Below, one piece after another: positions 1 through 60,116 of a DNA stretch of 64,000 nt. The stretch is from an uncultured Gammaproteobacteria bacterium (GTDB lineage: Bacteria; Patescibacteriota; Patescibacteriia; UBA11705; JABHMO01): contig CAZPYM010000002.1 of NCBI GenBank assembly GCA_964590105.1, positions 90,697 to 154,696 on the forward strand, written 5' to 3'. The notes under the pieces were generated by a model. The model was not told where the DNA came from. It made no database searches and saw only the letters and a list, made by a program, of their open reading frames with translations. Each line of letters starts with the position of its first letter. Position 1 is the stretch's first letter. Both the position numbers and the translations under genes were made by a program.

Positions 1-218
1 GGCCGAGAAATCATCTGCACGGTAGTAAGAGTCAAACCAAAGTCCGCCAAAATTCCAAAAAACTGCAAAAAGGCCGTAACCGTAATATAGTAACCAAAAC
101 CTTCTTTGCCCAAATAGCGCGTCATCATGGCCACTGCCACTAAACTCAAAATTAAACTGATAAATTTACCGGTCAAATGAATAATCGTGTTATGAGCGAT
201 TTTTTTATTCAAAGTCAT
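1..218 (-). CDS. Polysaccharide biosynthesis/oligosaccharide flippase-like protein (MOP superfamily), N-terminal 72 aa only; gene runs off the window start
   Basis: Manual minus-strand translation from ATG at 218..216 gives MTLNKKIAHNTIIHLTGKFISLILSLVAVAMMTRYLGKEGFGYYITVTAFLQFFGILADFGLT. This is a typical Wzx/RfbX-type N-terminus (TM helix plus conserved GxxGFG region). Not in the ORF track because it is truncated by the window edge. Confidence 0.45.
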   Translation of the reverse strand, partial: MTLNKKIAHNTIIHLTGKFISLILSLVAVAMMTRYLGKEGFGYYITVTAFLQFFGILADFGLTLTTVQMISR

Positions 219-460
219 ATTTCATTAATCATTAAACATGGGACATTATTCATAGAGAGTAGGGCTACCCTTCTTTTCTAATCTTGTGTAGGAGGGATTC
301 CCGAATCCCGCCGCCCTTTTCCACGTTCTCCATTCCATGTTCCGTGTTATGTATTATGTTTCCCGTATTCCTCATTCACTACAATTCTATCACCAAATTA
401 TTGTTACAGCAAAGATATTTTTTGTTTTTCCGCTAAAATTAAGCGCAAACAATTTAACCC

Positions 461-488
461 TTGACAAATAATAGATATCTGCTAAACT
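461..488 (+). promoter_or_regulatory. Candidate sigma70-type promoter (TTGACA, 16-nt spacer, TAAACT) in the AT-rich DNA just upstream of the GC-rich nfeD-flotillin cassette
   Basis: ttgacaaataatagatatctgctaaact read directly. It is followed by the RBS aaaggagg (530-537) and ATG at 542. Confidence 0.3.
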
Positions 489-541
489 ATTCCATTCTGC
501 AATTACGCAGAATTGGGCTCATTGAAAACAAAGGAGGCACT

Positions 542-1174
542 ATGGAAACATGGTGGGTCGCGCTCAGCGGTTCTGAACAGTTTTTCTGGGTAATTGCCAT
601 CATTTCCACAATCTTTTTGCTCTGCCAGTTTGTCATGCTCCTCGTCGGTCTGGATGACCAGCACGATGGGAGCACTGACACTGACGCAGATTTTGACGGA
701 CACGTTGATGGCCACGATCATGACTCTGATTCTGATCATGACCATGACGCCGGCCATCACGGCCTGGCACTCAAGAGTTTCTTTTCCATTCGCAGTTTGG
801 TGGCTTTTTTTCTCGGATTTTCATGGGGGGGACTTGGTTGTTTGGAATCAGGACTGTCACTTTCAGCGGCAGTCGCTATCAGTATCGTTATCGGAATTGT
901 GATGGCCAGTGTGGTTTTGCTGATTTTCCGGGCCCTTGTAGGCCTCCGGAGCAACGGCACGCTATCTGTCAAAAATGCGATCGGCCAGAAGGGCGTTGTG
1001 CTCATCCTGGTCCCGGCTAATAAAAACGGTTACGGAAAAGTGCATGTCACGGTCCAGGGGCGACTCTGCGACCTGACGGCGGTGACGGACGGCGACATCA
1101 GTCTGCCGAGAGGAACCTCCATCACTGTGAAAGACGTGAAAGGCGATTCTCTCGTAGTTGTCAAGGATCAGTAA
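542..1174 (+). CDS. NfeD-like membrane protein (membrane helices plus C-terminal OB-fold NfeD domain), the partner of the flotillin gene; carries an unusual Asp/His-rich insert
   Basis: RBS aaaggagg sits 5 nt before ATG 542 (the ORF-track start at 461 lacks an RBS). Hydrophobic helices, then the C-terminal segment GVVLILVPANKNGYGKVHVTVQGRLCDLTAVTDGDISLPRGTSITVKDVKGDSLVV, typical of the NfeD short-form beta-barrel. Sits immediately upstream of a flotillin gene, as in yuaF-floT type operons. Strongly G+C-rich codon usage. Confidence 0.7.
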   Translation: METWWVALSGSEQFFWVIAIISTIFLLCQFVMLLVGLDDQHDGSTDTDADFDGHVDGHDHDSDSDHDHDAGHHGLALKSFFSIRSLVAFFLGFSWGGLGCLESGLSLSAAVAISIVIGIVMASVVLLIFRALVGLRSNGTLSVKNAIGQKGVVLILVPANKNGYGKVHVTVQGRLCDLTAVTDGDISLPRGTSITVKDVKGDSLVVVKDQ

Positions 1175-1206
1175 CCACCACACAACAACCCAAGAAGGAG
1201 GCTATC

Positions 1207-2907
1207 ATGGTGGCAGGAATCTCAATGTGGGTGATCCTGAGCGCGATTTTCGGGCTCATGGTCTTCATTCTTCTCATCTCGGCGGCGGCGCGCTACAAGC
1301 GCTGTCCGTCCAACAAAATCCTGGTCAAGTACGGCAAGGTCGGCAAGGACAAGTCCGCCGAGTGCATCCATGGCGGCGCCACCTTTGTGTGGCCGCTACT
1401 CCAGTCGTACGAGTATCTTGACCTCATCCCCATGACCATCGAGGTCAGCCTGAAGAGCGCGCTGTCCAAGCAGAACATCAGGATCAACGTGCCTTCCAGA
1501 TTCACCATCGGCGTATCCACCGAACCGCATGTCATGCAGTCGGCTGCAGAGCGCTTGCTCGGCCTGAGCCTCAAGGAAATCGAAACCCGGGCAGAGGACA
1601 TCATCCTCGGCCAGCTTCGCGCCACGATCGCCACGATGAAGATCGAGGAGATCAACAGCGACCGAGAGGGCTTCGAGAAGAAAGTCCAGGACAACGTCGA
1701 ATCCGAGCTGAACAAGATCGGCCTCAAGCTGATCAACGTGAACATCACGGACATCACTGACGAGTCCGGGTACATCGAGGCGCTCGGCAAGCAGGCCGCG
1801 GCCGAAGCCATCAACAACGCCAAAGTGCAGGTCGCCGAGCAGGACAAGGCTGGCGCCAGTGGAGAGGCAGAGGCTCGCAAGGACCAGACCATCAACGTCA
1901 CCGGCGCGGACCGGGAAGGCGCGGTGGTCAGAGCCCAAAACGAAGCCAAGATCTCCGAGGCGGACAAGGAACGCGACGTCAAGCGCGCCCAGTACACCGC
2001 GGAAACCCAGGCCGAAGAAGCCCGCCGCGACCAGGCCAAGCCGAAGGCAGACGCCGTGGCTCGGCAGGCGGTCGTGGTCGAGGAAGTCAAGGTCGAGGAA
2101 CGTCGCCAGCAGGCGCTGGTGGCGGTGAAGGAACGGGAGATCGAAGTAGCCGAGAAATCCCAGCAGGCTACGGTCGTCGTACCGGCGCTGAAGCTGGCAG
2201 ACGCGGCCGAAGCCAAGGCGGACGGCGATCGCCGAGCGGCGGTGAAGACCGCCGAAGGCCAGAAGCAATCGCAGATCCTCGCCGCGGAAGCTGAGAAGCA
2301 GAAGCGGGAACTCGAGGGTCAGGGCGAAGCGGCCCAGATCAAGGCGGTCGGGCTGGCCGAAGCGGCCAGAGTGCAGGCAATCGGCGAAGCCGAGGGCGCG
2401 GCCATCAAAGCCAAGCTCCTGGCCGAGGCCGAAGGTGTACTCAAGAAGGCAGAGGCCTATGCCAAGCTTGACAAAGCCGGAGCACTGCAGATGGTCCTGG
2501 AGAAGTTGCCCGAAATCATCGGCGCACTCGCGCCGGTCATGGCGGCAATCGCCAAGCCCATGGAGGCCATCGACAAGGTGGTAGTCATCGAACAGGGCAA
2601 CGGCGGCGGCGGCTCCGGACAGACCGGGGTATCCCGTTTCACCGGCAATGTGCCGGGAATCCTCTTCTCCTTCCTCCAGAAGGCAGGGGAAATGGGCATC
2701 GACGTCGGTCCCATGCTGAAGAAGGTCGGCATCGATGTCGAGGATCTGTTCAAGGCCGAGGCTCACAAGCCGACCGCCGAGGAACACGTCGACCAGCCGG
2801 CAGTTGAGGCGGCGCCCCCGGCCGCGGAAGCGACCAAGGGGACTCCGCCGGCCATTCCGGCAGATGCCAAACAGGGTGACAAGCACCCGCCCAAGGACGG
2901 CAAGTAA
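1207..2907 (+). CDS. floT: Flotillin-like SPFH/band-7 family protein (FloT/YqiK type) with long Ala/Glu/Lys/Gln-rich coiled-coil region
   Basis: RBS aaggagg at 1194-1200 and ATG at 1207. N-terminal TM helix, SPFH domain and extended EA-rich heptad region (AEQDKAGASGEAEARKDQ... AEAEKQKRELEGQGEAAQIKAVGLAEAARVQAIGEAEGAAIKAKLLAEAEG), characteristic of bacterial flotillins. The antisense ORFs 1293-2216 and 1396-2886 are GC-rich artefacts. Confidence 0.85.
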   Translation: MVAGISMWVILSAIFGLMVFILLISAAARYKRCPSNKILVKYGKVGKDKSAECIHGGATFVWPLLQSYEYLDLIPMTIEVSLKSALSKQNIRINVPSRFTIGVSTEPHVMQSAAERLLGLSLKEIETRAEDIILGQLRATIATMKIEEINSDREGFEKKVQDNVESELNKIGLKLINVNITDITDESGYIEALGKQAAAEAINNAKVQVAEQDKAGASGEAEARKDQTINVTGADREGAVVRAQNEAKISEADKERDVKRAQYTAETQAEEARRDQAKPKADAVARQAVVVEEVKVEERRQQALVAVKEREIEVAEKSQQATVVVPALKLADAAEAKADGDRRAAVKTAEGQKQSQILAAEAEKQKRELEGQGEAAQIKAVGLAEAARVQAIGEAEGAAIKAKLLAEAEGVLKKAEAYAKLDKAGALQMVLEKLPEIIGALAPVMAAIAKPMEAIDKVVVIEQGNGGGGSGQTGVSRFTGNVPGILFSFLQKAGEMGIDVGPMLKKVGIDVEDLFKAEAHKPTAEEHVDQPAVEAAPPAAEATKGTPPAIPADAKQGDKHPPKDGK

Positions 2908-2924
2908 GCGTCCATTGTAATCGA

Positions 2925-2965
2925 TCTCCCGTTACCACCAAGTTGGTATCGGGAGTTTTTTTTGA
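2925..2965 (+). terminator. Rho-independent terminator after the flotillin gene
   Basis: ctcccgttaccaccaagttggtatcgggag followed by tttttttt. Confidence 0.6.
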
Positions 2966-3040
2966 CCGCTTATTGACAATTACTAAATTTACCGTCATAC
3001 TTGGACGAAACAACTGTCCTTTTAAATGGAGGTCTCAATC

Positions 3041-3292
3041 ATGCAATTCGTCTGGTGGAACATCGCGATTGCTTGGGCAATCATTTTTGCAATTTTCTTT
3101 GTAATCCTCAAAATCAAAGCATCCAAGAATCCTACCATCTCCGCTCTTACTTCGTCCGTAATGTCGATTGCAGCTTGCCTTGTTTTTCTCTGTACTCTCC
3201 ATTGGATATGCACTCATATCCTTGTAATTTCGATTGTTGCGTTCTCTGTTGCGGTTCTGACAGTAATATTCCTGCGGTTAAAAAACCAATAA
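3041..3292 (+). CDS. Small hydrophobic membrane protein, hypothetical (83 aa)
   Basis: RBS ggagg 8 nt upstream of ATG 3041. Product MQFVWWNIAIAWAIIFAIFFVILKIK... has two or three TM helices. No recognisable family. Confidence 0.45.
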   Translation: MQFVWWNIAIAWAIIFAIFFVILKIKASKNPTISALTSSVMSIAACLVFLCTLHWICTHILVISIVAFSVAVLTVIFLRLKNQ

Positions 3293-3297
3293 ACGTC

Positions 3298-3330
3298 AAA
3301 ACCAGCCCCTTACCGAGCTGGTTTTTTTAT
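3298..3330 (+). terminator. Rho-independent terminator
   Basis: aaaccagcccct taccga gctggttttttt hairpin plus T-run. Confidence 0.5.
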
Positions 3331-3485
3331 TCTTGAACTCTAATCTTTTATTTTTATTCTTCTCCCTACACTCCGCGCCCCACGTTATGCGTTATATATG
3401 GAAATTGAGATGTAACCACGCTCCTCGCAAAAAAAAGGGGTGGTAGACCTGTAAATTTTAGATTTTTAGTTTCAAATTTCCTTTT

Positions 3486-3550
3486 GCGCCAGAGGCGCAT
3501 CCACCTTTGGCGGAGGATTTTGTCCCGCCATGGCGGGATGGGCTTTGGGC
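3486..3550. repeat. GC-rich palindromic intergenic repeat element, copy 1 (two inverted units)
   Basis: gcgccagaggcgcatccacctttggcggagg / attttgtcccgccatggcgggatgggctttgggc. Matches 11263-11298 and 20137-20187; see findings. Confidence 0.45.
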
Positions 3551-3551
3551 T

Positions 3552-3815
3552 TTATTTCACTGGATCATTCCCACCTTTTGAAAACGGGTTACATCGCAAA
3601 ACACGCCAAATCGCCTTAGAGCCGCCCTTGAATACGCCATACTTTTCAACAGCTTCATAACCATACTGCGAACAAGTCGGATGAAACCGGCAATAACCAC
3701 CCGGAAACATATGTTTCAGCGGACCATGGTCAAAAGACAAAGTGTTCTGATATATTCTAATCATTTTAAGCAAAACAATCCGAGGATAATATTTAAATAT
3801 TGAGATCTTCGTCAT
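3552..3815 (-). CDS. yidD: Membrane protein insertion efficiency factor YidD
   Basis: ...[70 protein letters not shown] matches the YidD signature (IRxYQ, CRFxPTCSxY, RCHPxxxGGxDPV). Start placed at the MTKISIF Met (cat at 3813-3815), which gives the usual N-terminal length. Immediately downstream of rnpA. Confidence 0.85.
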
Positions 3816-3849
3816 AAAATAAAAAGTGGGGGGGGAAAGGTGACACCAA

Positions 3850-4206
3850 TTATAACAGGCCAACTTGTTTAAGTAAATAAATCAGTTCTTTTTCGATGAC
3901 TAAATATTCTTTGTCTTTAATTGCCGACTTAACAATAATCAAACAATCATTTTTGATTTTTAATTTATCTAATTTAAGTCTGATTATTTCGCGCAACTGC
4001 CTTTTGATTTTATTCCTACCGGTAGCTCGCTTGTCAATTTTATTACTAATAATAAACCCAAACCGCGGATTATCAATTCCATTATTAAAACACTTGACAA
4101 TCAAAAGCTGCCCGGCCGTATTTCTACCTTTCTTTTGCTTGAATTCCCGACCAAAAAAAGCATCAAATTCTTTTTGTTTGGTAATTCTATTTTTTTTGTC
4201 CAACAT
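3850..4206 (-). CDS. rnpA: Ribonuclease P protein component
   Basis: Basic 118-aa protein with the RnpA motif region ([26 protein letters not shown]). Lies in the canonical rpmH-rnpA-yidD arrangement next to dnaA. Confidence 0.85.
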
Positions 4207-4772: not shown

Positions 4773-6152
4773 ATGGAAGATCAAAATCTACAACTTTGGC
4801 AAGCAGTGCTGGGCGAACTCGAGCTAACGCTGAGTAAGGCAAGCTTTACCACTTGGCTGAAAAATACTTTTATTATTGAAAATGAAGACGGCCGGATTGT
4901 TATCGGCGTGCCGAATACTTTTTCCCAAGCCTGGCTAAAACAAAAATATCATCAGAAAATTTACAACCTAATACAATCAAAAACCAAAGACCGAATTAAA
5001 GAAATCCACTATAAAGTCCAAAGCGTAAAAAATTATCAGGAAGAAATTAAAACACTGAAAAAACAAATTGTTGAAACAGCTCAAAATCAAGTAATACCCA
5101 CCAACCCTTCTTCCCCGACAAAAGTTCTGGGGCTCAATCCCAAGTATATATTTAACAATTTTATTGTTGGTAAAGGCAATGAACTGGCGCACGCCGCTTC
5201 CATTGCCGTGTCAGAACGACCGGGATTAACTTATAATCCTCTTTTTATTTACGGCGGCGTTGGTCTCGGAAAAACTCACTTATTGCATGCCGTTGGCAAT
5301 ACTATTTCTGCAAAAGATCCGAGTAAAAAAATTCTTTACGTTACTTGTGAGCAATTTACAAATGATTTCATAAGCGCCATCTCTTCCGGCCGAGCGGAAA
5401 AATTTAATATTGCCTACCGCACAGTGGATGTCCTCCTGATCGACGATATTCAATTTCTAACCGGCAAAGAAGGAACACAGGAAGCGTTTTTTCATACTTT
5501 TAATGACCTTCACCAGCGGGACAAACAAATTGTTTTGACTTCCGACCGACCGCCAAAAGCGATCGCCACGCTGGAAGACCGGCTTCTCTCAAGGTTTGAA
5601 TGGGGGATGATCGCTGATATTTCTCAGCCTGATCTTGAGACCAGAATTGCCATTTTAGAAGCAAAATGCCAGGAAAAAGAATTTGAATTGGAACGGGACA
5701 TCATTCAATATATTACCCTGAATATTCAAAACAACATTCGGGAGCTCGAAGGCGCTCTAAATAAAATAATAGCTTATCATCAACTGAACAAAATCACTCC
5801 CACCCTTGAAAACGTTAAAAAGATACTTTTTTCCATTTCCACTTCCAGCAAAAAAACCGGCGCTGTGTCCGCTCGTCAGCTGATTGAACTGGTTTGCGAT
5901 TTTTATGATTTGACAATTGACGATATGCTCGGCAAGAGCCGGGAAAAAAGACTGGCTTTCCCTCGCCAAATCATTATGTTTCTTCTTCGGGAAGAACTTC
6001 AATGCTCTTATCCAATGATTGGCAATGAACTCGGCGGCCGTGACCACACCACGGCTATGCACGCCCACGAAAAAATTTCCAGAGTCATGGAGTCGGATGA
6101 AAAAACCAGGCAGGAAATAAATTTAATCAAGCAAAGAGTTTACGCGCACTGA
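4773..6152 (+). CDS. dnaA: Chromosomal replication initiator protein DnaA
   Basis: AAA+ Walker A GGVGLGKTHLLHAVG, sensor/box VII region and C-terminal DNA-binding domain (FPRQIIMFLLREELQCSYPMIGNELGGRDHTTAMHAHEKI). Flanked by rnpA/rpmH and dnaN. Confidence 0.97.
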   Translation: MEDQNLQLWQAVLGELELTLSKASFTTWLKNTFIIENEDGRIVIGVPNTFSQAWLKQKYHQKIYNLIQSKTKDRIKEIHYKVQSVKNYQEEIKTLKKQIVETAQNQVIPTNPSSPTKVLGLNPKYIFNNFIVGKGNELAHAASIAVSERPGLTYNPLFIYGGVGLGKTHLLHAVGNTISAKDPSKKILYVTCEQFTNDFISAISSGRAEKFNIAYRTVDVLLIDDIQFLTGKEGTQEAFFHTFNDLHQRDKQIVLTSDRPPKAIATLEDRLLSRFEWGMIADISQPDLETRIAILEAKCQEKEFELERDIIQYITLNIQNNIRELEGALNKIIAYHQLNKITPTLENVKKILFSISTSSKKTGAVSARQLIELVCDFYDLTIDDMLGKSREKRLAFPRQIIMFLLREELQCSYPMIGNELGGRDHTTAMHAHEKISRVMESDEKTRQEINLIKQRVYAH

Positions 6153-9038: not shown

Positions 9039-9276
9039 TTATTATTAATTAATGCTGCCAAAGAAAAACTTAAAATTGTCAGCGGTGCGGCTCCGCCACC
9101 TTTCCGAATTTTTGCGGGGGGAATTCCTCGCCGCCTGCGGCGGCGAAATGCGTTCGGACTAATTCAAGAATACTGCGCCATGAAGTATATTTATAAAGCA
9201 GGAATAAGCCCCTGTTTTTTTGTTAGGTATATATTTGATTAATAAAAAAACCGACCGCGAGGGGCCGGAATTTTGT

Positions 9277-10178: not shown

Positions 10179-11198
10179 ATGATTGAGGATAACAATAATC
10201 GAATTGTCTCTGCTAAGCTTGATGAAAATGACGGAAGCATTGATTTGAGTTTGCGGCCGAAAAAACTCGATGACTTTGTCGGCCAGCAAAAAATAAAAGC
10301 CAATTTGAATATATTTATGGAGGCGGCTAGGAAAAGGGGCGAACCGATAGAGCATGTTCTGCTCTACGGGCCGCCAGGGCTCGGAAAAACGACGCTGGCG
10401 CACATTATAGCCAATGAGATGGGTGCAAACATGCGAGTGACCACGGGGCCCGCAATTGAGAAGAGCGGGGACCTGGCGGCGATCCTTACAAATCTTGAAC
10501 CGGGAGACGTTTTATTTATCGATGAAATTCACCGGCTGAACCGGGTGGTAGAAGAAGTTTTGTATTCAGCAATGGAAGATTTTGTTTTGGATATTGTTAT
10601 TGGCAAGGGACCGTCGGCCAGAACATTGAGATTGGACATTCCTCACTTTACACTGATCGGCGCGACCACCAAGCTTTCTAAATTATCGTCACCTCTTCGC
10701 GATCGCTTTGGCAATACGTATCATTTGGAATTTTACGAAAATGAAGATATTGATAAAATAATAAATCGCTCAGCCGGAATATTAAATGTGAATTTTGTCG
10801 AGCCTTGTTCTCTTGAAATTGCCAAAAGAGCCAGGAAAACTCCGCGCATTGCCAATCGTCTTTTGAAAAGGATCCGCGATTTTGCCGAAGTGAAGAATCA
10901 AGGACAAATTAACCGTGAAATAGTGGAGCAAACAGTGCAGATGCTGGCAGTGGATCAGCATGGTCTTGATGATATTGACAGGAAAATTCTTTTGACGATA
11001 ATTGAAAAATTCGGCGGCGGACCGGTTGGCTTGAATACTATTGCCGCGGCTACTTCTGAGGAAATGGAGGCCATTGAAGACGTGTATGAACCGTATTTAT
11101 TGCAGTTGGGCTTTATCAATCGTACAAATCGTGGTAGAATAGTAACAGATGAAGCTTACAAACATTTAGGAATTGAAAAACGTAATTTGCTTTTGTAA
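10179..11198 (+). CDS. ruvB: Holliday junction branch migration DNA helicase RuvB
   Basis: [12 protein letters not shown], Walker [19 protein letters not shown], Walker [10 protein letters not shown] and the C-terminal winged-helix. Confidence 0.95.
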
Positions 11199-11262
11199 AT
11201 TTTTGAATTCCCCAGTTTTCCAGTTTCCTAATTACCTGATTTCTTGTTTTCTTGTAATTTGT

Positions 11263-11298
11263 TATTTGTCCGCCATAGGCGGATGCGCCTTGGGCGCA
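11263..11298. repeat. GC-rich palindromic intergenic repeat element, copy 2
   Basis: tatttgtccgccataggcggatgcgccttgggcgca, i.e. adjacent hairpins ccgccataggcgg and gcgccttgggcgc. Confidence 0.45.
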
Positions 11299-11322
11299 TA
11301 ATTTGTAATTTTTCGCTATTGT

Positions 11323-11568
11323 ATGGCAATTCCACTTTCAACATTTTTGTTTGTTTACCTGCTCTATATTCTAGTTTTTTTGTTTTTTAGTTTTTTTAAT
11401 TTGTATCACATGCTAAGGTACGGGTTTGTCAGTTTTCTCGCCTATGTGGTTACTGTCGGATACATTATTATTACCCTGTTGGCCTTATTTGTTTCCTATT
11501 ATTATTTGGCGCAGGTCGACTGGAGTCAGACAATTGATATTTATAAGGCATCTGGGGGAATTTATTAA
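11323..11568 (+). CDS. Small integral membrane protein, hypothetical
   Basis: 81 aa with two hydrophobic helices. Directly upstream of the bPH_2 protein (3-nt gap). Confidence 0.35.
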   Translation: MAIPLSTFLFVYLLYILVFLFFSFFNLYHMLRYGFVSFLAYVVTVGYIIITLLALFVSYYYLAQVDWSQTIDIYKASGGIY

Positions 11569-11570
11569 AT

Positions 11571-12128
11571 ATGTACAGCCATCATCATTTTCCAAATCAA
11601 AAACCAAACGAGCATGTGCTCATGTTTTTGCGCCGGCATTGGATCGTGGTTTTGAAACTTTTAGGCATTAGTTTGTGCTTGGTTTTAATCCCGGTTTTTT
11701 TCTTTATCATTTATATTAATTACACGGATTATTTTGAAAATGAAATTGTTACCGCTATCATAATTCTTTTAACCAGCGCTTTTTATTTATTTATAATTTT
11801 ATATACGTTTAGTAGTTTTGTTGACTATTACTTGGACGTCTGGATTGTTACAAATCAGCGAATAATTAATATTGAACAAAAGGGTTTATTCGCCAGGGTT
11901 GTTTCAGAAAAAGATTTAGGCAGGATGCAGGATATCACTTCTGATATTGAAGGATTTTGGGCCACGGTATTAAACTACGGGGATGTCCATATTCAGACTG
12001 CCGGAGAAAAAGAAAGATTTATTTTCAAACAGGTGCCTTTTGCTGATGAAGTTTCCCGCAGGATCAGCAATCTGGTTTCTGAATATCAAAAGATAAACAA
12101 AGATACGCCGCTCGATAAAGTAGGTTAA
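11571..12128 (+). CDS. Membrane-anchored bacterial PH-domain (bPH_2/YdbS-YdbT-like) protein
   Basis: Two N-terminal TM helices, then a domain of the type VWIVTNQRIINIEQKGLFARVVSEKDLGRMQDI ... GDVHIQTAGEKERFIFKQVPFADEV, typical of PF03703. Confidence 0.55.
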   Translation: MYSHHHFPNQKPNEHVLMFLRRHWIVVLKLLGISLCLVLIPVFFFIIYINYTDYFENEIVTAIIILLTSAFYLFIILYTFSSFVDYYLDVWIVTNQRIINIEQKGLFARVVSEKDLGRMQDITSDIEGFWATVLNYGDVHIQTAGEKERFIFKQVPFADEVSRRISNLVSEYQKINKDTPLDKVG

Positions 12129-14040: not shown

Positions 14041-14452
14041 AAAATTAAAGCTGCCTTAAGCTTTAAGGAAAGTCTTTGACAGCACGTTAAAAGTCCGTCG
14101 ATCAGCAAATTCTGATTTTTTGCCGTTATTCCAACGATGCACCGGGCTTAGGTAGCCGACAACTCTGGAATAAACTTCACACTTCTGCCGTTTTGATTGT
14201 GTTTGTAGTGGGGACATATGTGTAAATAAATTACAAATAATAAATAACAAATTACAAGTAACAAATTGATTTAAAATAAACGAGCGCTCATAGAAAAAGC
14301 ACTCGTTTTACATCTCCACATTATAATTATAGCAAAGTTTTTTGGGTTTGTCAATGCATTGGCTAAAGTTAGTGCTTAAGGTTGGCGGAGGCGGAAGTTG
14401 TTTTTATCGTTTGTTTCTAAATTTACAGCAAGAAAACCAAAAATCAATCGGA

Positions 14453-18560: not shown

Positions 18561-20081
18561 CTAGCCCTTTGGCCTGTATTGTAACGCCTCGGCAATGTGT
18601 GTTGTTTTGATATCGGCAATGTTTTCCATGTCGGCAATTGTTCTGGAAATTTTTAGAATTCGGTGATATGAACGGGCAGACAAATGAAGTTGATTTACCG
18701 CCGATTTCATCAGGTCGAGCGATGGTTGATCAAGCTGGCAAAATATTTTAATATCCTGCGGCCGCATTTCCGAATTGTATTTAATTGGTGAGTTTTGAAA
18801 TCTTTGTCTTTGAATTTTGTGAACTTGAGTAATGCGCTGTTGAATTATGGCCGAAGATTCGCTTTTTTGAGATTCCTGCAGTTTTTCAAAATTTAATCTT
18901 GGCACTTCCACATGCAAATCAATGCGGTCAATGATCGGGCCGGATATTTTTTTATTGTATTTAATAATCTGGCTAGGCGAGCAAACGCAATTTTTATCAG
19001 GGTCAGAATAATAGCCGCAGGGGCAGGGATTTTGGCTGGCGACGAGAGTGAATCTGGCAGGGAAAGTCAAAGTTCCCTGCGCCCTTGAAACGGTGATAAT
19101 GCCGTCTTCAAGTGGTTGGCGTAGATTTTCCAGAACCGGCCGGGGAAATTCCGGAAATTCATCCAGAAAAAGAATTCCCCGGTGCGCCAGGCTTATTTCG
19201 CCAGGCTTTGGAATTCGTCCGCCGCCAACCAGAGCGGCGCCCGAGCTGGTATGATGAGGCGAGCGAAAAGGGCGGCGGCGGATCACCGGCTCGCCCTGTG
19301 GCAAAAGACCGGCGATGGAATAAATTTTTGTCACCTCGAGAATTTCATCTTCCCCCATCGCCGGCAGAATGGAAGGTAGGGTTCTAGCCAAAAGAGTTTT
19401 TCCGGATCCGGGTGGCCCGCTTAATAAAATATTGTGCGCGCCGGCAGCGGCGATCTCGAGCGCCCTCTTGGCTTGCTCCTGCCCATGGACGAAAGCCATG
19501 TCCGTGTCAAAACAAACCGGCTGCTCGGTTGTTTCTAAAAGAGAATAGTCAAAAGGAATTATCTTTTCAATGCATTGCAAATGATCGACCAGCTGGCGCA
19601 AATTTTTTACCGGATAAATATTCAGGTCAGAAATTAAGCCGGCTTCTGTCGCATTATCTGCCGGGATGTATAAATTTTTGAAGCCTTTTTCTTTGGCGAA
19701 AATAGCAGCCGGCAAAATTCCGTTGGTGTGGCGCAGGTCGCCGCTTAGGGCGAGCTCTCCGATAAACAAACTGTCGTTCAAATCGCCGGCTTCAAGCTGA
19801 TCAGAATTAACTAATACGGATAGAGCAATCGCCAGGTCGTAAGAAGGGCCTTCTTTGCGCAGGTCAGCCGGCGCCAGATTGACAATGCTTTTGTAGCGCG
19901 GAAAAGAAAAGCCGCTGTTTTTTATTGCCAGCCGAACGCGCTCCTTCGCTTCGTTAATAGCCGCGTCGGGTAGACCGACAATTACAAAATAAGTCTGATC
20001 AGTTTTTACTTGATCAGATTCGACTTCCACCAATTCGCAGTTTAGTCCAATATTCGCGCAGGAGTTTATTTTGGCAAACAT
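18561..20081 (-). CDS. comM: YifB/ComM family Mg-chelatase-like AAA+ ATPase
   Basis: N-terminal Lon-like subdomain, Walker A LLSGPPGSGKTLLAR, ChlI-type AAA core and C-terminal helical domain. 506 aa. Confidence 0.9.
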   Translation of the reverse strand: MFAKINSCANIGLNCELVEVESDQVKTDQTYFVIVGLPDAAINEAKERVRLAIKNSGFSFPRYKSIVNLAPADLRKEGPSYDLAIALSVLVNSDQLEAGDLNDSLFIGELALSGDLRHTNGILPAAIFAKEKGFKNLYIPADNATEAGLISDLNIYPVKNLRQLVDHLQCIEKIIPFDYSLLETTEQPVCFDTDMAFVHGQEQAKRALEIAAAGAHNILLSGPPGSGKTLLARTLPSILPAMGEDEILEVTKIYSIAGLLPQGEPVIRRRPFRSPHHTSSGAALVGGGRIPKPGEISLAHRGILFLDEFPEFPRPVLENLRQPLEDGIITVSRAQGTLTFPARFTLVASQNPCPCGYYSDPDKNCVCSPSQIIKYNKKISGPIIDRIDLHVEVPRLNFEKLQESQKSESSAIIQQRITQVHKIQRQRFQNSPIKYNSEMRPQDIKIFCQLDQPSLDLMKSAVNQLHLSARSYHRILKISRTIADMENIADIKTTHIAEALQYRPKG

Positions 20082-20136: not shown

Positions 20137-20187
20137 GGATTTCCGCCAAAGGTGCCTGCCTGTGGCGGGGATGCGCCTTTAGCGCAA
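20137..20187. repeat. GC-rich palindromic intergenic repeat element, copy 3 (with insertion)
   Basis: ggatttccgccaaaggtgcctgcctgtggcggggatgcgcctttagcgca. Confidence 0.4.
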
Positions 20188-20329: not shown

Positions 20330-20848
20330 TTAGAATACTTTGTTCACTACAAATATTACTCCGCCGACAATTATTACTCCGATCACTATCCAGCCAATAT
20401 TTTCCTGGCCGGATTGCGGTTGTTCGTTTTCCGGCAAAGGATTGTTTTCCAAGTAGGTCTTCACAAATAGTTGCGGATCCGGATATTCATTTACCGGCAG
20501 ATTGTAAAATTCAACAGCCTGGCTGATTTCATTTTCACTTTCTCCTTCAATCGCTTTGGCACCGATGAAAGTGACGGGAATGCCCTGCGGAGAAATTTTA
20601 TATGCGTAGTTAAACTCATTGAACTTGGTGACATATTTTGGGTCAGCCTTCATGTCAAAGTCATGAATAACTATTTGAGGGTATTCGTTTTGTTTCAGCG
20701 TTTCAAGTTGAGAAAGAATATTAGCGCAATGCGGGCAACCATTTTGTGTAAAAATATAAATGTCCATCGGCGATTCCGCTGCTTGCGTCGCAGAAGAAAT
20801 GGCAAACATGAAGACAAGCAGAAAACCGAAAAAAAATATTTTTTTCAT
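20330..20848 (-). CDS. Secreted/membrane-anchored thioredoxin-fold protein with CPHC active site
   Basis: Signal peptide, then FTQNGCPHCANILSQLE (CxxC), then a C-terminal TM helix. Start overlaps the lspA stop by 4 bp. Confidence 0.6.
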   Translation of the reverse strand: MKKIFFFGFLLVFMFAISSATQAAESPMDIYIFTQNGCPHCANILSQLETLKQNEYPQIVIHDFDMKADPKYVTKFNEFNYAYKISPQGIPVTFIGAKAIEGESENEISQAVEFYNLPVNEYPDPQLFVKTYLENNPLPENEQPQSGQENIGWIVIGVIIVGGVIFVVNKVF

Positions 20849-35556: not shown

Positions 35557-35922
35557 ATGAAAAAGCGGTCATTGTTCTTTCGTCTGAAGTGGGGGAGAGT
35601 TCTGCTGATTTTGTTGGTTCCACTCTATGTGATGGGCGCGTCTGCGAATGCCAGAAGAACTGCTGCTGAACTTACTTCGGTTGCGGAGGCGTTCATGAGC
35701 GTTTCCGCCTATTGCAAGGCGGAAACAGAAGACAGCACTGAAAGGATCATGACCGTGCTCGACTGTGGCGGGGCCTATGATCCGCTAGTCCGCGAACGGG
35801 ACGAGATCGCGCACTCGCGCGGTTGCTGGAACGCGGCTAGCTGGAAGGTCTGGCAACAAGGACGTGACATGGTCAAAAGCACACCGATTGAGGTGTGGTG
35901 CCTCTCACCCTGGCCATTCTGA
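35557..35922 (+). CDS. Secreted small Cys-containing hypothetical protein (G+C-rich gene)
   Basis: MKKRSLFFRLKWGRVLLILLVPLYVMGASA signal peptide, then a Cys-containing domain. Codon usage visibly GC-rich compared with neighbours. Confidence 0.4.
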   Translation: MKKRSLFFRLKWGRVLLILLVPLYVMGASANARRTAAELTSVAEAFMSVSAYCKAETEDSTERIMTVLDCGGAYDPLVRERDEIAHSRGCWNAASWKVWQQGRDMVKSTPIEVWCLSPWPF

Positions 35923-36874: not shown

Positions 36875-37240
36875 ATGGAACCAGGAATGAAGATCCTTTT
36901 TGTTGATGATTTAAATATGGCGCTCAGAACGTATCAGCTGATGTGTGCCTCAATTGATGGTGTTCGAACTGACGTTGCCTCGAGTGGGCAAGAGGCACTC
37001 GAATTGCTGGAGCAGAATAACTATGACATTTTGTTCACGGACTACAATATGCCGGGAATGAATGGCGTAGCGCTGATTCGACACGCCCGCGCGCTTGGCC
37101 GCGAGATGAAGATTGTCATGATTTCAGCAACTCCGCCGGACGACCATGGGGCGGATGATGTGCTTGAGAAACCAGTGGGAAAAGGATTGAAGCAATTCAT
37201 TCTGGCCCACCTTCAACAGAGGAAGAAGGTGCAAAAATAA
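36875..37240 (+). CDS. Stand-alone response-regulator receiver (CheY-like REC) domain protein
   Basis: RBS aggagg precedes ATG 36875. KILFVDD, phospho-acceptor FTDYNMPGMNG, MISA and LEKP are the REC signatures. No output domain. Moderately G+C-rich. Confidence 0.8.
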   Translation: MEPGMKILFVDDLNMALRTYQLMCASIDGVRTDVASSGQEALELLEQNNYDILFTDYNMPGMNGVALIRHARALGREMKIVMISATPPDDHGADDVLEKPVGKGLKQFILAHLQQRKKVQK

Positions 37241-60031: not shown

Positions 60032-60116
60032 ATTGATTAAGGTCTCTTTACGTCTTTTTCTCGTCTGTACGTTTGTAATTTGTTGTTTGTAATTTGTAAT
60101 TTAAATTGTTATTATT

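What the first reader, a model, noticed from the sequence alone, without database searches (positions are those of the whole stretch)
3486..3550. Family of GC-rich palindromic intergenic repeats (REP-like) in an AT-rich genome
The about 30-bp unit CCGCCA-(2-4 nt)-GGYGG-ATGCGCC-TTN-GGCGC recurs at 3486-3516 (inverted), 3517-3550, 11263-11298 and 20137-20187 (with a 10-bp insertion). Each unit forms two adjacent short perfect hairpins (for example cccgccatggcggg and gcgccttgggcgc). All copies lie just downstream of gene 3' ends, but the T-run expected of an intrinsic terminator is weak or missing. This looks like a repetitive extragenic palindrome or miniature element family; it could be a binding site, an RNA-stability element or a recombination hotspot.
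Basis: seen in the sequence. Interest (0 to 1): 0.5.

Follow-up and report, generated by a model that had tools for sequence, protein, structure and literature searches.

The report
Cross-phylum 30-nt double-hairpin insertion element
The repeats are real, but they are copies of a tiny 30-base two-hairpin DNA element found almost unchanged in uncultured bacteria of more than ten phyla, where it sits in hairpin loops and next to small GIY-YIG nuclease genes at tRNA genes, so it looks like an undescribed selfish mini-element rather than this genome's own REP family.

Summary
The window has three strong copies (3485-3514 minus strand, 11269-11298, 20142-20186) and one decayed copy (3523-3552). The unit is T-CCGCC-nnn-GGCGG-A|T-GCGCC-nnn-GGCGC-A, two tandem 15-nt hairpins, far above chance (covariance-model E about 1e-22).

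This is not a lineage-specific REP family and not a terminator. A truncated scan of GTDB species genomes found the same 28-nt core at 93 non-chance sites. All are in metagenome-assembled genomes: Patescibacteria, Bacteroidota, Ignavibacteriota, Chlorobi, Chloroflexota, Omnitrophota, PVC and others. It is almost absent from viral contigs (one match), with no real match in plasmids and none in phages, and Rfam has no match.

Paralogous filled and empty sites show a precise 30-nt insertion without target duplication at the centre of hairpin-forming DNA (tRNA T-loop TTC^GAA, loops of GTAG-type REPs). At ten sites a UPF0213/Slx1-like GIY-YIG gene starts 11-65 nt away, in a recurring cassette: truncated tRNA copy, element, nuclease gene, intact tRNA.

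Close relatives of the window genome lack the element at the orthologous spacers. The window copies are solo, with no nuclease gene nearby. Best reading: non-autonomous or fossil copies of a horizontally spreading selfish element. The insertion mechanism is inferred, not shown.

The parts
3485..3514 (-). Copy A: full 30-nt unit T-CCGCC-AAA-GGTGG-AT-GCGCC-TCT-GGCGC-A (one G.T pair in hairpin 1). It lies in the yidD 3' untranslated region, upstream of the real terminator at 3298-3325.
   Evidence: 53.8 bits; -10.1 kcal/mol, z -3.2; identical in other samples' assemblies
3523..3552 (+). Copy B: decayed unit, inverted relative to A and 8 nt from it. Hairpin 1 is intact (CCCGCC-AT-GGCGGG); hairpin 2 is degenerate (GGGCT-TTG-GGCT). 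It abuts the yidD stop codon.
   Evidence: -7.0 kcal/mol, z -1.7; not reported by the covariance model
11269..11298 (+). Copy C: canonical 30-nt unit, 70 nt after the ruvB stop and 24 nt before ORF 11323-11568, between two TTGTAATTTGT boxes.
   Evidence: 53.7 bits; -12.9 kcal/mol, z -3.7. Same-species contigs end at it (L002, L005), or diverge 13 nt after it (L003, which also has a C-to-T change that keeps a G.T pair)
20142..20186 (+). Copy D: 45-nt variant. Hairpin 1 is enlarged by extra bases in its loop (CCGCC-AAAGGTGCCTGCCTGT-GGCGG); hairpin 2 is GCGCC-TTT-AGCGC. It lies between ORF 20330-20848 and comM (both on the minus strand).
   Evidence: 23.1 bits, E 2.5e-8; -16.3 kcal/mol, z -3.9; identical in L212
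9124..9146 (.). Uncertain: single GC hairpin TCGCCGCC-TGC-GGCGGCGA with the core of hairpin 1, in a convergent intergenic spacer. It may be a half or decayed copy, or unrelated.
   Evidence: (12.4 bits, E 0.002, hairpin 1 only)

Best explanation
The unit is a 30-bp DNA element made of two tandem 15-nt hairpin modules, T-CCGCC-nnn-GGCGG-A and T-GCGCC-nnn-GGCGC-A. It spreads horizontally and within genomes as selfish DNA. Shown: it appears as a precise 30-nt insertion without target-site duplication at the centre of sequences that are themselves hairpins or palindromes (the TTC^GAA of tRNA T-loop DNA, loops of GTAG-type REPs), and also in AT-rich spacers. Shown: in a minority of copies it sits at the junction of a recurring cassette, namely a tRNA copy truncated in the T-loop, the element, a roughly 80-aa UPF0213 (bacterial Slx1-like) GIY-YIG nuclease gene, and an intact copy of the same tRNA. 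Inferred: the two GC hairpins, extruded as a branched or cruciform DNA structure, are what this structure-specific nuclease family recognises. Breaks at hairpin tips would then be repaired using an existing copy as template, which copies the element (with or without the nuclease gene) into new hairpin loops. tRNA T-arms are universal targets, which would explain the cross-phylum range. The three to four copies in this window are solo copies with no nuclease gene nearby. They are non-autonomous or fossil insertions into AT-rich intergenic spacers of a Falkowbacteria-like Patescibacteria genome, at various stages of decay (C intact, A one wobble, D expanded, B half lost). Their local effect is probably limited to placing stable hairpins in untranslated or intercistronic RNA.
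For: (1) Cross-phylum identity. Of these, 93 have the invariant T...A flanks and 3-nt loops; 32 are chance-type matches inside GC-rich coding DNA. Hosts are MAGs labelled Patescibacteria, Bacteroidota, Ignavibacteriota, Chlorobiaceae, Chloroflexota, Omnitrophota, PVC/Verrucomicrobiota, WOR-1, Zixibacteria, Kryptoniota and uncultured 'Gammaproteobacteria'. At least eleven MAGs carry copies on two or more contigs. (2) Insertion boundaries. Pseudo-tRNA against the intact tRNA in the same locus reads ...GGTTC|T[28]A|GAATC... against ...GGTTCGAATCC... for tRNA-Gln, Ser, Asn and others. REP family members read GTAGCTGCAGACCTTT|AGGTCTGC when empty and ...CCTTT|T[28]A|AGGTCTGC when filled, likewise GGGCTTC|AGCCC. 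Flanks pair for at least 5 bp at 14 of 87 sites against 2.8 +/- 1.6 in permutations, 0 of 200 reaching 14. 24 of 93 sites have T-loop-type flanks. (3) Nuclease link. GIY-YIG genes (PF01541; closest solved structures are UPF0213 proteins 1YWL and 1ZG2) lie within about 100 nt at 10 sites in 9 loci, in 9 of 10 on the strand reading GCGCC..GGCGC-AT-CCGCC..GGCGG. 983 kb of control Patescibacteria DNA holds 5 such genes, none beside the element, which gives about 0.1 expected adjacencies. (4) Recent gain. 80 loci from relatives (DnaA 55-83% identical, 983 kb) hold only 3 sites and none at the orthologous yidD- or ruvB-downstream spacers. That is about 0.003 per kb against about 0.05 per kb in the window. 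(5) Decay series within the window and compensatory stem variants elsewhere, such as CAGCC/GGCTG, ACGCC/GGCGT and a diverged second copy inside the L015 pseudo-tRNA. (6) A strain difference begins 13 nt after copy C, and two same-species contigs end at it. (7) Not a terminator: there are no T-runs, and a canonical bidirectional terminator lies downstream of A/B. There is no enrichment in convergent spacers (crude test). (8) Strict 3-nt loops, purine-rich in the 5' hairpin and closed by C-G, match the very stable DNA C(GNA)G mini-hairpins known from established nucleic-acid chemistry. This fits a DNA-level rather than RNA-level structure (inference).
Against: No GIY-YIG gene lies in the window (tblastn). 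About 9 kb of flanking sequence recovered from other assemblies holds no further copies of the element but was not searched for the nuclease gene; the rest of the 594-kb genome could not be read. Only about 10% of copies have the nuclease gene beside them. No orthologous empty site exists for the window copies, because relatives are too diverged for spacer alignment. Copies A, C and D are identical wherever other samples' assemblies reach them, so no ongoing mobility is seen. The filled/empty comparisons are between paralogous sites, not alleles. The stems are nearly invariant while the loops vary freely, which could also reflect a host function or a sequence-specific host protein. No nuclease activity or binding is demonstrated, and the insertion chemistry is unknown. 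Stem invariance is partly an ascertainment effect of the search pattern.
Confidence: 0.6

Rival explanations
1. RNA-level cis element. The two hairpins act in transcripts as a stabiliser, processing site or U-tract-independent terminator, as proposed for REPs, and work in either orientation because the unit is nearly symmetric.
For: All window copies lie in transcribed spacers or untranslated regions. G.T pairs that would be G.U in RNA occur in A and in the L003 variant of C on the strand reading CCGCC..GGYGG-AT-GCGCC..GGCGC. In nuclease cassettes the element lies 11-65 nt upstream of the start codon, where a 5' hairpin could protect the mRNA. Stable predicted fold.
Against: The same primary sequence in more than ten phyla is not expected for a host-evolved RNA signal. 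It is absent from orthologous spacers of close relatives. There is no T-run, and a canonical terminator follows A/B. Orientation relative to transcription is mixed in the window (A and C in one sense, B and D in the other), and D's mismatch favours the opposite strand. There is no enrichment at convergent gene ends. Strict triloops are atypical for RNA hairpins. No Rfam family matches.
Confidence: 0.15
2. Scar model. The element is not mobile by itself. Each solo copy is what remains after a tRNA-targeting GIY-YIG cassette (or another integrative element) was inserted and later deleted.
For: Cassettes carry the element at their junctions, and some are flanked by two direct copies (L035, L117, L048). 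Many solo copies retain tRNA T-arm fragments. Copy D has faint T-loop-like flanks (AAGTT..AATCCAC on the opposite strand).
Against: The insertions in REP loops are exactly 30 nt with no other foreign bases. Copies A and C have no tRNA-like flanks. Pseudo-tRNAs can carry a second, diverged copy at another position (L015), which implies repeated independent insertion.
Confidence: 0.12
3. Host DNA-binding site. The nearly dyad-symmetric 30-mer is bound by a conserved host protein (nucleoid, topoisomerase or recombinase), as BIMEs bind IHF and gyrase.
For: Near dyad symmetry and nearly invariant stems with free loops. Copies A/B lie about 0.7-1.3 kb from the dnaA-upstream region.
Against: No candidate protein was identified. 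The element is patchy among close relatives. The decayed copies B and D are tolerated. Its placement inside pseudo-tRNAs and REP loops has no obvious host logic.
Confidence: 0.08
4. Assembly, adapter or binning artefact, which would explain why only MAGs carry it.
For: All non-chance hits are MAGs. About ten of the 93 sites lie within about 150 nt of a true contig end. The Nitrososphaera-labelled contig L028 shares its flanks with the Bacteroidota contig L050, so at least that label is probably a binning error.
Against: The same loci are assembled identically from several independent samples and pipelines (ENA, JGI, Logan). The element occurs in long-read and curated complete MAGs. It varies in its loops, shows compensatory stem changes and sits in coherent biological contexts.
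Confidence: 0.01

Closest known systems
REP / BIME elements with their RAYT (TnpA-REP) transposases (GTAG- or CGTC-tagged palindromes; PMC3733652)
   Same: Short GC-rich extragenic palindromes, multi-copy, sometimes in inverted pairs (as A and B are), predicted to form hairpins in DNA and RNA, and presumably moved in trans by a nuclease.
   Different: REPs are lineage-specific and carry a GTAG/CGTC head. This element has no such head, has the same sequence across phyla, is a tandem double hairpin, and in Dehalococcoidia sits as a guest inside the loop of GTAG-type REPs. The recurrent neighbouring gene is a GIY-YIG nuclease, not a HUH/RAYT gene.
Mitochondrial double-hairpin elements of Allomyces, yeast mitochondrial GC clusters, sponge repetitive hairpin elements (as summarised in PMC2800124; PMC4478555)
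   Same: GC-rich hairpin or double-hairpin mini-elements scattered in AT-rich genomes, with presence/absence differences between close relatives. The Allomyces elements also lack flanking duplications.
   Different: Those are organellar and lineage-restricted, and no sequence comparison was made here. This element is bacterial, shared across phyla, only 30 nt long, targets hairpin centres and is linked to UPF0213 nuclease/tRNA cassettes.
Free-standing GIY-YIG homing endonuclease genes, for example phage T4 SegB in the tRNA gene cluster (PMC2330249)
   Same: A GIY-YIG nuclease gene embedded among tRNA genes. The cassettes seen in other genomes duplicate part of the target gene so that an intact copy remains.
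   Different: SegB-type enzymes have DNA-binding domains and no associated hairpin element. Here the nuclease is the minimal Slx1-like UPF0213 domain, the element marks the junction, and the window copies have no nuclease gene at all.
GC-rich PstI palindromes flanking tRNA genes in Neurospora mitochondria (cited in PMC2800124, reference 17)
   Same: Conserved GC-rich palindromes associated with tRNA genes in an AT-rich genome.
   Different: Different sequence and host. Known to me only from that citation and not tested here.

Membership tests
REP / BIME (RAYT-associated) | Conserved GTAG or CGTC tetranucleotide at one end of the palindrome | tested here: not met
   Window copies are flanked by ..TCC|T..TTG|T and ..ATT|T on one side and A|AAA, A|TAA and A|AAC on the other. 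GTAG heads occur only in host REPs of Dehalococcoidia that carry the element in their loop.
REP / BIME (RAYT-associated) | Lineage-specific sequence with a cognate RAYT gene in the genome | tested here: not met
   The same core occurs in more than ten phyla. Clustering of ORFs within about 0.9 kb of 127 sites gave GIY-YIG as the only recurrent nuclease-like family. The whole source genome was not available.
REP / BIME (RAYT-associated) | High copy number, extragenic | tested here: inconclusive
   3-4 copies in 64 kb plus none in 9 further kb, all intergenic. The genome-wide count is unknown.
MITE | Terminal inverted repeats plus a target-site duplication, typical length 100-400 bp | tested here: not met
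   The unit is 30 nt, and filled/empty comparisons show no duplication.
Intrinsic (Rho-independent) terminator | GC hairpin followed directly by a T/U run | tested here: not met
   No T-run after any copy. The scan calls only 3298-3325 and 3204-3221 in the A/B region.
Free-standing GIY-YIG homing cassette | Nuclease ORF adjacent to the element, with partial duplication of the target gene | tested here: not met
   This is met in other genomes (L015, L035, L048, L069, L072, L079, L114, L117). The window has no GIY-YIG ORF and no tRNA fragment next to A or C.
Mitochondrial double-hairpin elements / GC clusters | Two adjacent GC hairpins in AT-rich DNA, insertion polymorphism between relatives, no target duplication | tested here: met
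   This shows functional and structural resemblance only.
Mitochondrial double-hairpin elements / GC clusters | Sequence homology to the organellar elements | not tested
   No organellar element sequences were compared.
Any Rfam RNA family | Match to a curated covariance model | tested here: not met
   Only tRNAs at gathering threshold in the window. Nothing relevant at E up to 10 around copy C or the L035 cassette.
tRNA intron / T-loop intervening sequence | A complete tRNA is restored when the insert is removed | tested here: not met
   In-silico excision at 125 sites with three trims gave no tRNA spanning any junction. The tRNA parts are truncated copies beside intact genes.

The most novel reading that the evidence does not exclude
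The 30-nt double hairpin is the cognate DNA structure of the widespread but functionally unassigned UPF0213 (bacterial Slx1-like) GIY-YIG nucleases. Together they form an unrecognised class of selfish cassettes that colonise tRNA genes across bacterial phyla. The hairpin module also propagates on its own by inserting, without target duplication, at the tips of other DNA hairpins (T-loop DNA, REP loops).
Probability: 0.35. Interest if true: 0.8.

Novelty: new variant of a known kind. Interest (0 to 1): 0.62.

Why it matters
Small palindromic repeats are known, but they are lineage-specific and their movement is poorly understood. Here the same 30-nt element occurs across phyla of mostly uncultured bacteria. 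Its insertion boundaries are exact, it prefers hairpin centres, and it is statistically strongly linked to a minimal GIY-YIG nuclease family that has solved structures but no assigned function. That gives a concrete, testable substrate for these nucleases and a candidate mechanism for how tiny palindromes spread. It would also explain some pseudo-tRNA clutter, contig breaks and strain-variable junctions in metagenome-assembled genomes. For this window alone the practical message is modest: the copies are probably passive insertions, not regulatory signals or terminators.

Tried and rejected
(1) tRNA mini-intron in the T-loop. Rejected: removing the insert never restores a complete tRNA, and the tRNA pieces are truncated duplicates.

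(2) One long hairpin instead of two. Loop 1 and loop 2 are no more complementary than chance; fully complementary pairs are if anything depleted (3 seen, 99% of shuffles had at least 3).

(3) Terminator. No T-runs, and a true terminator lies downstream of A/B.

(4) Heptamer tandem repeats as part of the element. Flanks are only weakly more periodic than DNA 400 nt away (p = 0.013). Relatives have similar AT-rich repeats in the same spacers without the element, so these belong to the spacers.

(5) GC-rich islands bounded by copies. True at 1-3480 and for the L003 variant, but the 39.7-46.3 kb GC-rich block has no copies at its edges, so this is not a general rule.

(6) Phage or plasmid vehicle. 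One match in 2.9 million viral contigs, none in phage records, and only a partial match inside a coding gene in plasmids.

(7) Weak model hits at 35699-35732 and 37127-37172 lie inside ORFs and are treated as chance.

(8) Five literature searches found no description of the bacterial element.

(9) Reaching the rest of the 594-kb source genome failed. Only about 9 kb beyond the window could be fetched.

Full report
**Setting.** The window is about 40% GC. It carries rnpA (3850-4206, minus strand), yidD (3552-3863, minus strand), dnaA (4773-6152), dnaN, ruvB (10179-11198), comM (18561-20081, minus strand) and eight tRNA genes. Its DnaA is 79-81% identical to proteins named Candidatus Falkowbacteria, Parcubacteria or Patescibacteria. 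The longest public contig that carries it is 594,201 nt. The host is therefore a small-genome Patescibacteria (CPR) bacterium known only from metagenomes.

The unit is present at all four reported places.
- The best description is a 30-nt module, T-CCGCC-nnn-GGCGG-A followed by T-GCGCC-nnn-GGCGC-A. These are two tandem 15-nt hairpins, each with a 6-bp stem and a 3-nt loop.
- Copy C (11269-11298, plus strand) is canonical.
- Copy A (3485-3514, minus strand) has one G.T pair.
- Copy B (3523-3552, plus strand) keeps only the first hairpin.
- Pattern counts are far above shuffled expectation: 4 against 0.17, and 10 against 0.55.
- A covariance model built from copies in other genomes plus copies A and C scores A and C at about 54 bits (E about 3e-22) and D, which was not used to build it, at 23 bits. 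Everything weaker lies inside ORFs.
- Folded as single-stranded DNA, A, C and D give exactly the two adjacent hairpins, with z-scores of -3.2 to -3.9.
- None is followed by a T-run. A/B are followed by a canonical bidirectional terminator at 3298-3325, so they sit in the yidD 3' untranslated region and are not its terminator.
- About 9 kb of extra sequence from other assemblies adds no further copy.

- 32 matches are chance-type, inside GC-rich coding DNA. These include the only cultured isolates hit.
- 93 share features the pattern did not ask for: an invariant T before and A after the core, loops of exactly 3 nt, a purine-rich first loop (AGA, AAA, GGA, GAA) and a pyrimidine-rich second loop (TTT, TCT, TCC, TAT).
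- Their hosts are MAGs labelled Patescibacteria (many classes), Bacteroidota, Ignavibacteriota, Chlorobiaceae, Chloroflexota/Dehalococcoidia, Omnitrophota, PVC/Verrucomicrobiota, WOR-1, Zixibacteria, Kryptoniota and uncultured 'Gammaproteobacteria'. Two carry archaeal labels; at least the Nitrososphaera one (L028, whose flanks match the Bacteroidota contig L050) looks like a binning error.
- At least eleven MAGs have copies on two or more contigs.
- The element is nearly absent from 2.9 million viral contigs (one match). It has no real match in 72,556 plasmid records and none in 50,697 phage records.
- Rfam has no matching family, and five full-text literature searches found no description of it in bacteria.

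**Close relatives mostly lack it.** Eighty metagenomic loci around dnaA from relatives (DnaA 55-83% identical, 983 kb in all) contain only three sites. None is at the spacers downstream of yidD or ruvB, although synteny (ruvB, small ORF, spoIID) is kept in L130, L132 and L133. In the closest relative that retains ruvB (L130) the ruvB-to-ORF spacer is very short. In the window it is 124 nt of AT-rich repeats plus the element. Density is about 0.05 per kb in the window against 0.003 per kb in relatives, which points to a recent gain.

**What the element looks like where it is better preserved.**
- *Nuclease gene.* All-against-all clustering of ORFs near the sites gave one recurrent family, an approximately 80-aa GIY-YIG protein. 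It matches PF01541, and the closest solved structures are the UPF0213 proteins 1YWL and 1ZG2. These are the bacterial 'Slx1-like' minimal nucleases of PMC1564403. At 10 sites in 9 loci the gene lies within about 100 nt. In 9 of these the element is 11-65 nt upstream of the start codon, on the strand reading GCGCC..GGCGC-AT-CCGCC..GGCGG. Control Patescibacteria DNA (983 kb) has five such genes, none beside the element, so about 0.1 adjacencies would be expected by chance.
- *Cassette.* The architecture recurs for different tRNAs: a tRNA copy running from position 1 to the T-loop, then T[28]A, then GAATC(C), the nuclease ORF, and an intact copy of the same tRNA (L015 and L069 tRNA-Gln; L072; L079; L117 tRNA-Ser). 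In L035, L048 and L117 two or more direct copies of the element flank the nuclease gene or the tRNA.
- *Exact boundaries.* Comparing the truncated and intact tRNA copies in one locus gives GGTTC|T[28]A|GAATC against GGTTCGAATCC. Removing the insert never restores a full tRNA, so this is not an intron.
- *REP loops.* In Dehalococcoidia the element sits in the loop of GTAG-headed REP-like hairpins, and family members without it exist. GTAGCTGCAGACCTTT|AGGTCTGC is the empty form of ...CCTTT|T[28]A|AGGTCTGC, and GGGCTTC|AGCCC is the empty form of GGGCTTC|T[28]A|AGCCC. The inserted unit is again exactly 30 nt, with no target duplication.
- *Flanks.* Across all sites the flanks form at least 5 bp of stem in 14 of 87 cases, against 2.8 +/- 1.6 in permutations, with none of 200 permutations reaching 14. 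24 of 93 have T-loop-type flanks.
- *Structure is kept.* A search for the generic architecture with any stems (T, 5-bp stem, 3-nt loop, A, twice) over 3.8 Mb (both strands) found only this family. Its few variants keep pairing through compensatory changes such as CAGCC/GGCTG and CCGCC in both modules. ACGCC/GGCGT turned up in the covariance-model search, and a diverged second copy lies inside the L015 pseudo-tRNA.
- *Two hairpins, not one.* The two loops are not complementary to each other beyond chance, so the two-hairpin form is the relevant one rather than a single long hairpin.

**Population-level hints in this species.** Assemblies from other samples are identical to the window wherever they overlap it, and the contigs that reach copies A and D carry them unchanged. 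The exception is at copy C. Contig L003 carries a C-to-T change that keeps a G.T pair, then switches 13 nt after the element to an unrelated GC-rich ORF that looks to me like a VirB2/TrbC-type pilin. Two further contigs end in or at the element. This fits a junction that varies between strains, but it is a single case.

**Interpretation.**
- *Shown:* a 30-nt double-hairpin module, conserved in sequence across phyla; a precise insertion without duplication at the centre of hairpin-forming DNA; a strong statistical link to UPF0213 GIY-YIG/tRNA cassettes; patchy presence among close relatives; visible decay in the window.
- *Inferred:* the module is selfish DNA. The branched or cruciform structure it can extrude is recognised by the Slx1-like nuclease. 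Eukaryotic Slx1 is a structure-specific nuclease (PMC1564403). Breaks at hairpin tips would be repaired from an existing copy, which spreads the module with or without the nuclease gene. Universal tRNA T-arm DNA would then explain the wide host range.
- The strict 3-nt, purine-rich, C-G-closed loops resemble the very stable DNA C(GNA)G mini-hairpins. This favours a DNA-level structure, but it rests on my own knowledge and is not a test.
- The window copies have no nuclease gene nearby and, for A and C, no tRNA remnant. They are best read as non-autonomous or fossil copies.
- I put about 0.6 on the selfish-element reading as a whole and about 0.35 on the specific nuclease-substrate mechanism.

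**Rivals.**
- *RNA stabiliser, processing site or terminator:* disfavoured by the cross-phylum sequence identity, absence from orthologous spacers, mixed orientation, missing T-runs, the terminator after A/B and the lack of enrichment between convergent genes. Not excluded, since hairpins near a 5' end could protect the nuclease mRNA.
- *Pure scar model:* conflicts with the clean 30-nt REP-loop insertions.
- *Host protein-binding site:* has no candidate protein.
- *Artefact:* excluded by identical assemblies from independent samples and pipelines, its presence in long-read and curated complete MAGs, and the natural variation.

**Limits.**
- The GTDB scan was truncated, and its pattern fixed the stems, which inflates their apparent invariance.
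- Filled/empty comparisons are between paralogous sites, not alleles.
- The gene-orientation test is crude.
- MAG taxonomy labels are taken as given.

**Comparison with known systems.** The element works like REP/BIME elements and, even more closely, like mitochondrial GC clusters and double-hairpin elements. It fails the defining REP features (no GTAG/CGTC head, not lineage-specific, no RAYT gene) and the MITE features (no target duplication, far too short). The cassettes resemble free-standing GIY-YIG homing genes such as T4 segB in a tRNA cluster, but they use a minimal nuclease and add a hairpin module. I rate it a new variant of a known kind, small palindromic selfish repeats, with a real chance of exposing a new mechanism.

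Noticed in passing
window 1-3480: This block is 51% GC against about 39% for most of the window. It encodes a flotillin/Band_7 protein (1207-2907) and ends at a bidirectional intrinsic terminator (3298-3325), immediately before copies A/B and the conserved yidD-rnpA-dnaA block. The DNA downstream of yidD is different in every relative examined. It looks like acquired DNA at a synteny break.
   Followed up: partly
window 11252-11313, 14226-14257 (minus strand), 60073-60097: An AT-rich box, TTGTAATTTGT, recurs in clusters (11 hits with up to 1 mismatch against 3.8 expected). The three clusters lie about 10-220 nt upstream of a start codon and in the orientation of that gene. Relatives have other 6-14-nt tandem AT-rich repeats in the same spacers (L132 has about four tandem copies of aattagtaatttgg; L135 has repeated gaaatt). 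This may be a promoter or leader feature of this lineage. Copy C is inserted between two boxes.
   Followed up: partly
L003 1882-2136 (same species, JGI 3300028162): This contig matches the window at 99.95% identity (one C-to-T change, in copy C) up to position 11311, 13 nt past copy C. It then continues into a GC-rich ORF, (..GGVTWMTAAGAPEGVTKGRGMIIDGAIGLTV..), that looks to me like a VirB2/TrbC-type pilin. It is either a strain-specific insertion or a chimeric join at the element.
   Followed up: partly
L182 about 10960-11320 (Patescibacteria relative): Same cassette architecture with a different hairpin: a tRNA-Cys pseudo-copy whose middle is replaced by CCCCGCCCCTCGCGAGGAGCGGGGC, then a GIY-YIG gene, then an intact tRNA-Cys. 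This suggests the tRNA-plus-UPF0213 cassette type is broader than this particular 30-nt element.
   Followed up: no
L015 about 2905-2935, upstream of the GIY-YIG gene: The truncated tRNA-Gln copy carries a second, diverged double hairpin (T-C(A)TGCC-AGA-GGCAG-A, T-CAGCC-TCC-GGCTG-A) inserted after the D arm. Both stems are changed in a compensatory way. In L048 a pseudo-tRNA has its anticodon arm replaced by ATCCCGC-GAA-GCGGGAT.
   Followed up: partly
window 9124-9146: A lone GC hairpin, TCGCCGCC-TGC-GGCGGCGA, with the core sequence of hairpin 1, in the convergent spacer before zapA. It may be a half copy of the element.
   Followed up: no
window 11323-11568: A small ORF (81 aa, hydrophobic, MAIPLSTFLFVYLL...) directly after copy C is conserved in relatives L130, L132 and L133, so it is probably a real membrane-protein gene. 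It is easily missed as an alternative to the 11571-12128 ORF.
   Followed up: partly
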